Shown here: in pieces, positions 10,069-12,690 of the stretch
Layout of the letters: each line of letters begins with the position of its first letter
Position numbering within the stretch: the stretch's first letter is position 1
NCBI GenBank assembly: GCA_037200965.1
Contig: JBBCGK010000001.1
Span: forward strand, 640,001 to 704,000
Length of the DNA: 64,000 nucleotides
Direction of reading: 5' to 3'
Source of the DNA: a bacterium
Lineage (GTDB): Bacteria; Patescibacteriota; Minisyncoccia; Phycocordibacterales; Phycocordibacteraceae
The notes under the pieces: model-generated
The model's database searches: none
Seen by the model: only the letters and a program-made list of their open reading frames with translations
What the model was told of the DNA's origin: nothing
Program-made: the position numbers and the translations under genes

Positions 10069-10458
10069 ATGATGCACATCAAATACAAGCTCGATACGTC
10101 GAAGCTCCACGGCATCGGATTATTTGCCGCCGAGAACGTACAGAAAGGACAACTCGTTTATACCGCAAGTCCGGTACTTGACCTCAACATAACGCAGGAG
10201 CAATTCGATGCGCTAAACGAATCGGAACAGCAGGAAATACGGTGGTGGGGATTCGAGGTCGAACCGGGAATCTGGCATGTCGACTTCGACGTCTCAAAAT
10301 TCATTAATCATTCCTACGATTCCACCGTGACCCAGGATCAACATACTAAAGAGGCGCATCTGATAGCGGTGCGGGATATCGAAGCGGGGGAGGAGCTCAC
10401 GCAGAATTATTTGGAATTCGAGTCCGCGGAGGATTTGCAGCGGAGAGGGATTGAGTAG
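10069..10458 (+). CDS. SET-domain protein (putative lysine methyltransferase)
   Basis: GIGLFAAENVQKGQLV, INHSYDST (NHSCxPN-like), GEELTQNY (ELxxDY-like) motifs. Confidence 0.55.
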   Translation: MMHIKYKLDTSKLHGIGLFAAENVQKGQLVYTASPVLDLNITQEQFDALNESEQQEIRWWGFEVEPGIWHVDFDVSKFINHSYDSTVTQDQHTKEAHLIAVRDIEAGEELTQNYLEFESAEDLQRRGIE

Positions 10459-10595: not shown

Positions 10596-11230
10596 ATGAA
10601 GGAATTCGTACCTACATCACGCGCGAAAAATCCGGAGCCCGATACTTCAGATATCGCCGAATGGCTTGAAGGCGAATCAAGGGAGGTGCGCGCGCTCTTT
10701 AATCAGCTGCCGCGTCCGCTTTGGAGACGGCATTATCAGGCCATAGAGGATCGTATCGCGGCGAGTCCAGACCTCAACCCTGAAGCGCTAGCGCAAGAGA
10801 AGCTTGGGTATCTCTTAGGAGTAGTGGAAGCCAGGAGAGTAAGTCTGGAAGAGTTCAAGTCGACCGATCCGCATTTTCGGGAGTTGATAGCCGAACCTAA
10901 ATTCGGTGAGAGACTGCAGGGATTGCTTGAGTCTCCGGAAGAGACGCTCGGCGCCGGACAAACTGCGCGCGTAAAGCGACTTAGCCTTGCCGGCGAACGT
11001 AACGCTGCGGTGAAGTACCTCCTCACCCCCACACAAAAAACTCTCTCGGCAGAAGGAGAGCATGACATGCTGTGGGAAGTTGATACGGTGACGCATATCG
11101 AAGAGGAAGAACACAAAATAGGCGCGGGCTCCAGAATCCGCGTACCGCACCCATACTTTTACTACAAGAACGAAAAGCTCCAATGTTATGGCATGGAAGA
11201 AATTAAAGGTCAAACCATCGAGCGGTACAT
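10596..11230 (+). pseudogene. protein kinase-like gene, N-terminal fragment (Gly-loop GAGQTARV, AVKYL, hinge YGMEEIKGQTIERY) truncated by IS30 insertion
   Basis: N-lobe kinase motifs; the reading frame runs into the IS30 terminal repeat at 11231. Confidence 0.6.
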
Positions 11231-12268
11231 TCAAGAATATATCGCAACACCCGTATCCCTCCAGAATACTTCCTCGGGCGTCAGCCCGCCATGGCGCTTG
11301 CGTGGTCGGGTATTGATGAGGCGTTCCGCTCGAGCAAGCTCCTCGTCAGAGACCAAACTCCAGTCGGTCTTCTTTGGGAAAAATCGACGGGCTAGACCAT
11401 TCGCGTTCTCGTTTGAGCCGCGCTCGCACGAGCTGTATGGATGGGCGAAGAATATATCCATGTCGAGTGCTTCTTTGACTTCTTCCCACCGCACGTTCTC
11501 CGTACCGCGGTCTCGCGTGAGCGTCTTGCGCACGCGCTTTGGAAGAGCGGAGAGCCGTTTGATGAGTGCCTCGTCGCAGACAACGGCCGTACCATCCTTG
11601 GCCTTCTCAAAGAAGGTCACACCGCTCCTGCGCTCGGTCATACTTTTGACACGGTCGGTTGATTGCCTCGACACCATGGTGTCGTCTTCCCAGTCACCGA
11701 TGCGGGAGCGTTCGTTCACCACCTCGGGACGCGCTTCGATTGAGGGCAACGCCTCATTCCGTGCCATTCTGCGGGCTTTCCTGAAGCCCTGCTTCGCACG
11801 CGCCTTGTGGCGACGTGCCAAATGCGGCCGCAGATCGGTCTCTCCGGGCTTCACCGATCCTCGGCCCTTGCGATGTATCCTGCGGTATACCTCCTGGTAT
11901 ACCGCTTCGGTTGAGATGCGCATGGAAGGGTCGTCGGGGTATTCAAGTGGCAGTCGTATATGCACTTGCTCGGGAGACCATTTCTTTTCCCGCATCTTCT
12001 CCTCGACGTACGCTTTGAGTGTTGGGGTACGCTTCATTTTTGGCGTGTTGCCTCGCTTGCCAATGCGTTCTTGCGCTTTTGCGTGTGCCGCTTCAGCTCG
12101 ATACCGCCCCATCCCTTTGCGCGGTTTCCCCGCAAGCTCGCGGGAGACCGAGCTCTTGTTGCGGCCGAGTTCCGTGGCCATGTCCGTGACGCTCTTTGCG
12201 TCCTTGCGCCATCTGACTTCGATGATGCTTCGTTCGCGGAGCGTGAACGGTCCCTTGTTTTGTGCCAT
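11231..12268 (-). CDS. IS30-family transposase
   Basis: HTH N-term, DDE core DRGTEN, C-term HPYSSCERGSNENANGLARRFFPK, LINTRPRKRHGGLTPEEVF; ATG at 12268 (the track start at 12274 is TTG). Confidence 0.85.
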   Translation of the reverse strand: MAQNKGPFTLRERSIIEVRWRKDAKSVTDMATELGRNKSSVSRELAGKPRKGMGRYRAEAAHAKAQERIGKRGNTPKMKRTPTLKAYVEEKMREKKWSPEQVHIRLPLEYPDDPSMRISTEAVYQEVYRRIHRKGRGSVKPGETDLRPHLARRHKARAKQGFRKARRMARNEALPSIEARPEVVNERSRIGDWEDDTMVSRQSTDRVKSMTERRSGVTFFEKAKDGTAVVCDEALIKRLSALPKRVRKTLTRDRGTENVRWEEVKEALDMDIFFAHPYSSCERGSNENANGLARRFFPKKTDWSLVSDEELARAERLINTRPRKRHGGLTPEEVFWRDTGVAIYS

Positions 12269-12315
12269 ATCCAATTAGCCTAGTCTGCTAATTGGGTGTT
12301 GCAATTAATTCTGGA
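11231..12315 (-). mobile_element. IS30-family insertion sequence (~1085 bp)
   Basis: terminal IRs CAAGAATATATCGCAACACC (11232-11251) vs GGTGTTGCAATTAATTCTGG (12295-12314, reverse complement, 16/20 match); transposase stop inside IR. Confidence 0.75.
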
Positions 12316-12690
12316 ACTTAGGAGCAGCTTCTAAGTACCGGTACACCGAATACGCTTGCCGAGACTGAACAACGCGAAGCGGTCTGGAAAGCCTTGCGAC
12401 GCAGATACTCGGATCCGCAAGAGCAGGCATCTCTGCATACAGAACTCGACAAGTTTGTATTCGCGGTACACACCGTATGTCTTCATGGGGATATCAAGCT
12501 CGCGAATATGATGGTAGACGGAGAAGGCACCATCTACCTTATCGACTTTGGACAGTCGATAGACATGAACGCCATGAACGACAAAGCCCGCGAGCAGTTC
12601 GAGAATTTACAGGTTCTCGAACGCGACCAGGTTAAATTCTGCATTCGCTCACTCCTTGACGGCATAACGCGCCCAAAGCCCACTGTTTAA
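12316..12690 (+). pseudogene. protein kinase-like gene, C-terminal fragment (catalytic loop HGDIKLANMMV, DFG)
   Basis: frame open from 12322 (after a TAG at 12319), continues the kinase fold: LHGDIKLAN...LIDFGQS. Confidence 0.6.

What the first reader, a model, noticed from the sequence alone, without database searches (positions are those of the whole stretch)
10596..12690. Protein-kinase-like gene split by a clean IS30 insertion between hinge and catalytic loop
Upstream fragment: Gly-loop GAGQTARV, AVKYL Lys motif, hinge YGMEEIKGQTIERY. Downstream fragment in a continuing frame from 12322: LHGDIKLANMMV catalytic loop and DFG. The 1085-bp IS30 lies exactly between them, with IRs at 11232-11251 and 12295-12314. 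The 560-aa ORF in the track across this region is an artefact (antisense of the transposase). This is a recent inactivation of a eukaryote-like or aminoglycoside/choline-kinase-like kinase.
Basis: seen in the sequence. Interest (0 to 1): 0.55.

Follow-up and report, generated by a model that had tools for sequence, protein, structure and literature searches.

The report
IS30 insertion splitting a kinase-like gene
A 1.1-kb mobile element of the IS30 family has jumped into the middle of a small protein-kinase-like gene in an uncultured Patescibacteria-type genome and knocked it out; this is an ordinary gene disruption, and I have corrected its exact boundaries.

Summary
The core of the finding is right; the coordinates are not. 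An IS30-family insertion sequence sits at 11224-12322 (1099 bp, not 1085). Its transposase is on the minus strand (11231-12268). It has 29-nt imperfect terminal repeats and a perfect 3-bp target duplication, AGC (11221-11223 and 12323-12325). It interrupts codon Q210 of a 330-codon gene.

Both halves are undecayed, so the disruption is evolutionarily young. However, the same junction is present in four other contigs from different samples or assemblies, and no intact near-identical allele was found.

The kinase belongs to a small, uncharacterised Patescibacteria family that fits no named kinase family. Overall this is an ordinary IS-mediated pseudogenisation of low interest.

The parts
10596..11223 (+). 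5' fragment of the kinase-like gene. It covers codons 1-209 plus the first base of Q210: an N-terminal helical region, the Gly-rich loop G119xG121, Lys140, the alphaC Glu and the hinge QCYGME.
   Evidence: ORF. Alignment to full-length homologues. Motif coordinates.
11221..11223 (.). Left copy of the 3-bp target-site duplication, AGC.
   Evidence: The reconstructed empty site ATCGAGCAGCT is identical to the DNA of homologue P0003 at that position.
11224..12322 (-). IS30-family insertion sequence, 1099 bp. GC is about 0.59 against 0.50-0.52 in the flanking gene.
   Evidence: Ends fixed by aligning and testing 32 related copies. Composition.
11224..11252 (.). Terminal inverted repeat at the transposase-stop end (GGTACATTCAAGAATATATCGCAACACCC). 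It contains the transposase stop codon.
   Evidence: 21 of 29 positions match the other end.
11231..12268 (-). Transposase CDS of 345 aa from the ATG (an alternative TTG start lies at 12274). It has an N-terminal HTH and a DDE triad at D196, D253 and E287.
   Evidence: NCBIfam transpos_IS30, 225.6 bits against a cut-off of 80. Pfam HTH_38. DDE spacing. NCBI names it MEJ0053815.1, IS30 family transposase.
12294..12322 (.). Terminal inverted repeat at the transposase-start end (reverse complement CCTAAGTTCCAGAATTAATTGCAACACCC).
12323..12325 (.). Right copy of the 3-bp target-site duplication, AGC.
12326..12690 (+). 3' fragment of the kinase-like gene. It runs from the rest of codon Q210 to the TAA stop and holds the catalytic loop LHGDIKLAN (D265, N270), DFG (283-285) and the C-terminal helix.
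   Evidence: Pfam APH, Pkinase and RIO1 hits on the catalytic-loop-to-DFG region.
11209..11213 (+). GTCAA half-site lying 7 nt from the duplication. It matches the target preference seen in related copies of this IS clade.
   Evidence: T, C, A and A are each found in 9 of the 13 sites with a perfect duplication (the window's own site is one of the 13), at the mirror-image position.

Best explanation
A 1099-bp insertion sequence of the IS30 family integrated into a 330-codon gene, inside codon Q210 (...GQTIE|QLLSTG...). It carries a DDE transposase; the prototype IS30 transposes by copy-out-paste-in. The insertion duplicated the 3 bp AGC.

The gene encodes a small protein-kinase-like (PKL) protein: an N-terminal helical region of about 110 aa followed by a minimal kinase core of RIO/Bud32/WaaP size with HGD...N and DFG motifs. 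It belongs to a small family seen almost only in Patescibacteria/CPR metagenome bins.

The insertion separates the ATP-binding N-lobe and hinge from helix alphaD, the catalytic loop and the metal-binding DFG. Neither fragment can therefore form an active site, and the gene is a pseudogene. The event is young on an evolutionary scale, since the duplication is perfect, the transposase is intact and the kinase residues are undecayed. It is nonetheless carried by every sequenced representative of this population that I could find.

Shown: the IS family, its ends, the duplication, the restored ORF, the homology across the junction and the predicted fold.

Inferred: loss of function, the transposition mechanism, and the biochemical activity of the intact protein.
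For: IS identity:
- NCBIfam transpos_IS30 scores 225.6 bits against a cut-off of 80, covering the full model.
- Pfam HTH_38 matches at the N terminus.
- D196, D253 and E287 have 33 residues between the second D and the E.
- The repeat motif is unique to the two ends, with 0 expected by chance.

Ends and duplication:
- In 32 related copies the only combination that gives direct repeats is repeat core plus 6 nt with a 3-bp repeat. This gives 13 perfect cases against about 0.5 expected; every other 3-bp combination tested gives 3 or fewer.
- The window copy obeys this rule with AGC/AGC.

Repair:
- Removing 11224-12325 gives a 330-aa ORF.
- The empty site ATCGAGCAGCT equals the homologue's DNA.

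One gene:
- Uninterrupted homologues of 319-342 aa cover 97-99% of the joined protein. The best is 2e-132 at 67% identity, and there is no gap at the junction.

Fold:
- The AF2 model has pLDDT 92 and pTM 0.83, and the junction lies in a confident helix.
- Foldseek ranks Rio2 and RIO1 best, at E about 4e-8.

No decay:
- Only 1 of 55 columns that are at least 90% conserved deviates (E163D). This equals the median of intact homologues.

Not an assembly artefact:
- The left IS/kinase junction is held by Logan SRR28211700 and SRR10968228 (100% identical) and GCA_015655515.1 (99.83%); the right junction by SRR28211700 and GCA_015655515.1. The exact-transposase look-up also returned the record the window matches perfectly, GCA_037975565.1.
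Against: - Loss of function is inferred, not measured.
- The N fragment keeps its start and promoter region, so it could still be made as a truncated or fused polypeptide.
- A TTG at 12394 with a weak GGAA upstream could in principle start a 98-aa C fragment.
- No empty-site allele was recovered, so the ancestral sequence is reconstructed from homologues that are at most 68% identical.
- The four other contigs that carry the same junction may come from related samples, so 'fixed' is not proven.
Confidence: 0.93

Rival explanations
1. The split gene is still functional. Either the N and C fragments are expressed separately and reassemble, or the 560-aa read-through ORF (N-lobe fused to the antisense translation of the transposase) is a real protein.
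For: - Both fragments are undecayed.
- The antisense frame across the whole transposase is open for 345 codons, which only 0.3% of codon shuffles achieve.
- A TTG start exists at 12394.
Against: - The split lies inside the kinase core, so the active site would need both halves.
- The only in-frame start for the C part lies 23 codons downstream of the junction, which would remove most of the helix that the model places at residues 220-237.
- The open antisense frame is not conserved in most related IS copies, where the longest open stretch is 73-233 codons in 15 of 16.
- In a sister strain the N fragment carries P184Q at an invariant Pro and a further breakpoint at about 11130. This fits a gene no longer under selection.
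Confidence: 0.04
2. The juxtaposition is an assembly artefact, with an IS copy mis-placed by the assembler into a gene that is intact in the cell.
For: IS elements often break or mis-join metagenome assemblies. Two older assemblies do break near this locus.
Against: - Both junctions are reproduced in other contigs from different samples and assemblers.
- The element is bracketed by a perfect 3-bp duplication of the kind its relatives make.
- The exact-transposase look-up found this protein only at this locus, so there is no evident second copy to mis-place.
Confidence: 0.02
3. This is an old, fixed pseudogene rather than a recent inactivation.
For: - The insertion is shared by every assembly found, including one that is 0.17% diverged.
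- No intact allele above 68% identity exists among 5.8 billion protein clusters.
Against: - There are no stops, frameshifts or losses of conserved residues in either fragment.
- The duplication is perfect and the transposase ORF is intact.
Confidence: 0.1

Closest known systems
IS30 family insertion sequences (prototype IS30 of E. coli; IS1655 of Neisseria)
   Same: - A single transposase ORF with an N-terminal HTH and a DDE triad with 33 residues between the second D and the E.
- About 1.1 kb long, with terminal inverted repeats of 20-30 bp, and the transposase stop codon lying inside one repeat.
- A 2-3-bp target duplication. IS30 makes 2 bp and prefers nearly palindromic hot spots (PMC9333248).
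- Relatives of the element show a target preference, GTCAA at a fixed distance from the duplication.
   Different: - The transposase is at most 38% identical to IS30-family transposases annotated on plasmids of cultured bacteria.
- Its closest relatives (82%, then 63-68%) are all unnamed metagenome copies, and the more distant genome-bin relatives (about 50%) are labelled Parcubacteria, Lloydbacteria or Saccharibacteria.
- The duplication is 3 bp, not the 2 bp of IS30.
- The outermost 6 nt of the two ends match poorly.
RIO kinases (Rio1/Rio2) and other minimal atypical kinases (Bud32, WaaP/Kdo kinase)
   Same: - Best Foldseek hits are Rio2 and RIO1.
- The catalytic loop is HGD....N rather than HRD.
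- The C-lobe is short, with no long activation segment.
- An extra N-terminal domain is present, as in Rio2.
   Different: - Pfam RIO1 scores 20.5 bits, below its cut-off of 22. Bud32 and Kdo-kinase NCBIfam models score far below their cut-offs.
- The N-terminal helical region of about 110 aa has no counterpart found.
- No ribosome-biogenesis or KEOPS gene context is present.
APH / choline-kinase type phosphotransferases (Pfam PF01636)
   Same: Pfam APH is the only model that passes its own cut-off (26.1-26.9 bits against 23.2). NCBI names one homologue 'phosphotransferase'.
   Different: - The match covers only about 55 of 239 profile positions, from the catalytic loop to DFG.
- The NCBIfam APH(3') model scores 17 against a cut-off of 205.

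Membership tests
IS30 family insertion sequence | Transposase matches the family model above its curated cut-off | tested here: met
   NF033563 transpos_IS30 scores 225.6 bits against a cut-off of 80, covering model positions 1-267 of 267.
IS30 family insertion sequence | DDE catalytic triad with about 33 residues between the second D and the E, and an N-terminal HTH | tested here: met
   D196 (WEDD), D253 (TRDRG) and E287 (NENANG), with 33 residues between D253 and E287. Pfam HTH_38 scores 27.1 against a cut-off of 27. The assignment of the catalytic residues is by motif, not by structure.
IS30 family insertion sequence | Terminal inverted repeats of about 20-30 bp and a total length of about 1.0-1.25 kb | tested here: met
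   29-nt ends with 21 of 29 matches (23-nt core with 19 of 23). Total length 1099 bp.
IS30 family insertion sequence | Target-site duplication of 2-3 bp | tested here: met
   AGC is present on both sides. The same geometry gives perfect 3-bp repeats in 13 of 32 related copies, against about 0.5 expected.
IS30 family insertion sequence | Transposition through a circular or IR-IR junction intermediate (copy-out-paste-in) | not testable with these tools
   Known for IS30 itself (PMC9333248). No junction sequence could be searched for here.
Protein-kinase-like (PKL) superfamily | Gly-rich loop, beta3 Lys, alphaC Glu, catalytic Asp and Asn, and metal-binding DFG in the right order | tested here: met
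   G119, G121, K140, E155/E161, H263, D265, N270 and D283-F-G are invariant across 73 family members including the repaired window protein.
Protein-kinase-like (PKL) superfamily | Bilobal kinase fold | tested here: met
Canonical Ser/Thr protein kinase (Pfam Pkinase) | Score above the Pfam gathering threshold | tested here: not met
   26.6 bits against 31.7, and only profile positions 110-152 are matched.
RIO kinase | Score above the Pfam RIO1 threshold | tested here: not met
   20.5 bits against 22. 69 of 73 family members hit RIO1 at E <= 0.001, but only over the catalytic region.
Bud32 / KEOPS kinase | Match to the Bud32 equivalog models, and association with Kae1 | tested here: not met
   TIGR03724 scores 27.4 bits against a cut-off of 125. 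No Kae1/TsaD neighbour was seen in three genomic contexts.
Aminoglycoside/choline-kinase type phosphotransferase (APH) | Full-length match to APH models | tested here: inconclusive
   Pfam APH passes its cut-off (26.1 against 23.2) but covers only profile positions 137-197 of 239. NCBIfam APH_3p scores 17 against 205. No APH structure is among the listed fold matches.

The most novel reading that the evidence does not exclude
The disrupted gene represents a distinct, so far undescribed family of minimal protein-kinase-like proteins restricted to Patescibacteria/CPR. The family has its own N-terminal helical domain of about 110 aa and an invariant TLSAxGEHD segment between the beta3 Lys and alphaC. 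This locus would then be a natural knockout, showing that the protein is dispensable in at least one lineage. A second possibility is that the IS belongs to a CPR-specific IS30 clade with 29-nt ends, a 3-bp duplication and a GTCAA-N7 target preference.
Probability: 0.5. Interest if true: 0.3.

Novelty: new member of a known kind. Interest (0 to 1): 0.12.

Why it matters
It matters little beyond annotation. The locus should be annotated as one pseudogene (10596-11223 joined to 12326-12690) interrupted by a 1099-bp IS30-family element. It should not be annotated as a 560-aa protein or as unrelated small ORFs. Gene callers on the public contigs disagree on what lies here.

There are two modest by-products. 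First, the ends, duplication size and target preference of an IS30 clade common in CPR metagenomes are now defined. Second, a small uncharacterised CPR kinase-like family (about 46 clusters at 50% identity) now has a confident structural model and evidence that it can be lost.

Tried and rejected
1. Core-to-core excision (11230-12316) leaves a TAG. Excision using the 7-bp repeat CGGTACA (11223-11229 and 12339-12345) as a putative duplication gives the wrong frame.

2. I first considered a 3-4-bp duplication GAG(C) with asymmetric ends. This was replaced by AGC with symmetric 6-nt extensions after testing 32 relatives. The reconstructed empty site is the same under either reading.

3. I looked for other copies of this exact IS. 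The exact-transposase look-up found only this locus, and the window holds no second copy of the repeat motif.

4. I looked for an intact near-identical allele and found none. The best full-length homologue is 67-68% identical.

5. I tried to identify the foreign sequence that replaces the kinase N fragment at about 11130 in two other assemblies.

6. I looked for conserved gene neighbourhood as a clue to function. The three contexts examined differ.

7. A literature search for IS30 in Patescibacteria returned nothing relevant.

Full report
**Observation**

- A plus-strand ORF starts at 10596 and carries the Gly-rich loop GAGQTARV (nt 10950-10973), AVKYL (11007-11021) and the hinge-like QCYGMEEIKGQTIE (to 11222).
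- A different plus-strand frame is open from 12322 to the TAA at 12688-12690. It carries LHGDIKLANMMV (12481-12516) and DFG (12544-12552).
- Between them, on the minus strand, lies a 345-aa ORF (11231-12268). It matches the NCBIfam IS30 transposase model over its whole length at 225.6 bits against a cut-off of 80. It has an N-terminal HTH_38.
- The transposase contains the motifs WEDD, TRDRG and NENANG. These place D196, D253 and E287, with 33 residues between the last two.
- A 23-nt inverted repeat (19 of 23 matching) lies at 11230-11252 and 12294-12316. Its degenerate pattern occurs nowhere else in the 64 kb, and never in shuffles.
- The element is richer in G+C (about 0.59) than the gene around it (0.50-0.52).

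**Where the element really ends**

Deleting exactly from repeat core to repeat core (1087 bp) stays in frame but leaves a TAG at 12319.

Full-length homologues settle the matter. The DNA of homologue P0003 reads ATC GAG CAG CT at that point.

To fix the ends independently I collected relatives of the transposase from genome and metagenome collections and aligned both termini. Conservation continues about 6 nt beyond the repeat core on each side (...TTGAA-TGTACC, and C/G-x-T/C-x-A-G-TTCC...).

A systematic test on 32 copies tried end extensions of 3-8 nt and duplications of 2-4 bp.
- Only 'core + 6 nt with a 3-bp duplication' stands out, giving 13 perfect direct repeats where about 0.5 is expected.
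- No other 3-bp combination gives more than 3.

The window copy follows the rule. The IS is 11224-12322 (1099 bp). Its ends are 29 nt with 21 of 29 matching. The duplication is AGC at 11221-11223 and 12323-12325.

Removing 11224-12325 (1102 bp) yields a 330-codon ORF reading ...EEIKGQTIE|QLLSTGTPNTLAE... . The insertion is therefore inside codon Q210. The 'R' and 'Y' are read from the last C of the duplication plus the IS terminus GGTAC(A).

**It was one gene, and it is a kinase-like fold**

- The repaired protein finds 173 relatives. The best are uninterrupted proteins of 319-331 aa (E = 2e-132 to 6e-124, 61-67% identity, 98-99% coverage).
- In a 73-sequence alignment, 27 columns are invariant. 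They include G119, G121, K140, E155, E161, H263, D265, N270 and D283-F-G.
- AlphaFold2 with this alignment gives pLDDT 92.0 and pTM 0.83. The junction lies inside a confident short helix (208-212) just after the hinge strand.
- Foldseek ranks Rio2 and RIO1 first, at E about 4e-8.

At sequence level only the stretch from the catalytic loop to DFG is recognised, and by many models of the kinase superfamily at once.
- Pkinase scores 26.6 against a cut-off of 31.7.
- APH scores 26.1 against 23.2.
- RIO1 scores 20.5 against 22.
- ABC1 and TCAD9 also match.
- A profile search of PDB sequences reaches only about 6e-6, to Aurora and RIO kinases.

I therefore file the protein in the protein-kinase-like superfamily. 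It resembles the minimal HGD-type kinases (RIO, Bud32, WaaP) in size and catalytic loop, but it is not a member of any named family.

The family itself is small. An exhaustive profile search of 1.84 billion representatives gives 46 proteins at E <= 1e-30 and 169 at E <= 1e-10. Where sources give names, they are Patescibacteria, Parcubacteria, Paceibacterota or Nomurabacteria bins. Gene neighbourhoods differ between the three contexts examined, so context gives no clue to function.

**Is it real, and how old is it?**

The window matches a stretch of contig JBBCBH010010897.1 (960 kb) of GCA_037975565.1 perfectly over the 7038 bases compared. NCBI annotates the transposase there as 'IS30 family transposase'.

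The same junctions occur in other data:
- a Logan assembly of SRR28211700 (100% identical over 6085 bp);
- a Logan assembly of SRR10968228 (100% over 1377 bp, including the left junction);
- JAATEX010000163.1 of GCA_015655515.1 (99.83% over 4141 bp).

An assembly artefact is therefore very unlikely.

The repaired protein departs from the family consensus at only 1 of 55 columns that are at least 90% conserved (E163D). This equals the median of intact homologues. There are no internal stops or frameshifts, the duplication is perfect and the transposase is intact. The disruption is thus young relative to the rate of protein evolution.

It is not demonstrably polymorphic, however. No intact allele closer than 68% identity exists in the protein collection. 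In the 0.17%-diverged strain, the N fragment already carries P184Q at an invariant proline, and its sequence is replaced by something else upstream of about 11130. Both are what one expects of a gene no longer under selection.

**Mechanism**

By analogy with IS30 (PMC9333248), the element probably transposes by copy-out-paste-in through an IR-IR junction and favours nearly palindromic targets.

Among the 13 copies with intact duplications (the window's own copy included), T, C, A and A are each found in 9 at positions -11 to -8. This gives a GTCAA motif 7 nt from the duplication, with a TTGAC-like mirror on the other side. The window has GTCAA at 11209-11213 with exactly that spacing.

The insertion separates the N-lobe and hinge (aa 1-209) from alphaD, the catalytic loop and DFG (aa 210-330). 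Neither product can form an active site. The loss of function and the transposition pathway are inferred, not shown.

**The 560-aa ORF**

The ORF at 10596-12278 is the N fragment running on through the antisense strand of the transposase. The coding strand of that stretch is settled by the transposase match.

The antisense frame being open for all 345 codons is somewhat unusual, since only 0.3% of codon shuffles achieve it. But it is not conserved. 15 of 16 relatives have a longest antisense open stretch of only 73-233 codons, and one has 336. I therefore treat it as chance in a G+C-rich gene.

**Verdict**

This is an ordinary and well-understood event: an IS30-family element has pseudogenised a small kinase-like gene. 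The IS size, its ends, the excision recipe and two 'hinge' residues needed correction.

Novelty is limited to a new member of the IS30 family (at most 38% identical to transposases annotated on plasmids of cultured bacteria) and an uncharacterised CPR kinase-like family. Interest is low.

Noticed in passing
window 11130-11141; L005 4141-4180; P0005 residues 182-214: Two older assemblies of close relatives depart from the window inside the kinase N fragment.
- JAATEX010000163.1 (GCA_015655515.1) matches from the IS side down to 11129/11130, then continues with 41 unrelated bases.
- The 1347-bp contig of GCA_015689235.1 matches from the SET-gene side to about 11141, then encodes an unrelated 32-aa tail.

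The two matched stretches overlap by about 12 bp (TCCAGAATCCGC). This suggests a second insertion with a long target duplication in those strains.
   Followed up: partly
window 11231-12268, plus strand: The frame antisense to the transposase is open over all 345 codons. Only 0.3% of codon-shuffled versions reach this. One relative (L022) is also almost fully open (336 codons), but 15 others are not (73-233).
   Followed up: partly
window 11209-11213; flanks of L014, L020, L026, L029, L030, L033, L039, L040, L052: Related IS30-clade copies show a target preference. GTCAA lies 7 nt before the 3-bp duplication (T, C, A and A each in 9 of the 13 copies with a perfect duplication, the window's own included), with a TTGAC-like mirror image on the other side. 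The window insertion has the half-site on its left flank only.
   Followed up: partly
window 12336-12345 versus 11224-11229: The terminal hexamer of the IS (GGTACA) recurs in the target 14 nt downstream of the right-hand duplication copy, inside the palindrome GTACCGGTAC. With the preceding C it forms a 7-bp direct repeat (11223-11229 and 12339-12345). This could be chance, or it could reflect the preference of IS30-type transposases for sequences resembling their own ends.
   Followed up: no
L036 about 1390-1470: One related element carries two tandem copies of its left end (GATAGGTTCAAGAAATAATCGCAACGCTCTGTGA, 34 bp apart). Only the outer copy gives a perfect 3-bp duplication (ACT).
   Followed up: no
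L030 and L031: Two metagenome contigs share an identical left flank and IS but have different right flanks. Only L030 shows a matching duplication (CTC). This suggests recombination between IS copies, or a chimeric assembly.
   Followed up: no
window 12632-12690: The 3' end of the kinase-like gene overlaps, convergently and by 59 bp, the 3' end of a minus-strand gene. That gene encodes a 668-710-aa LCAT-domain (PF02450) protein.
   Followed up: no
window 10069-10458: A 129-aa SET-domain protein gene lies directly upstream of the disrupted kinase gene (NCBI MEJ0053813.1). SET-domain proteins are uncommon in bacteria. It is not conserved next to the kinase homologues in the other two genomes examined.
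   Followed up: no
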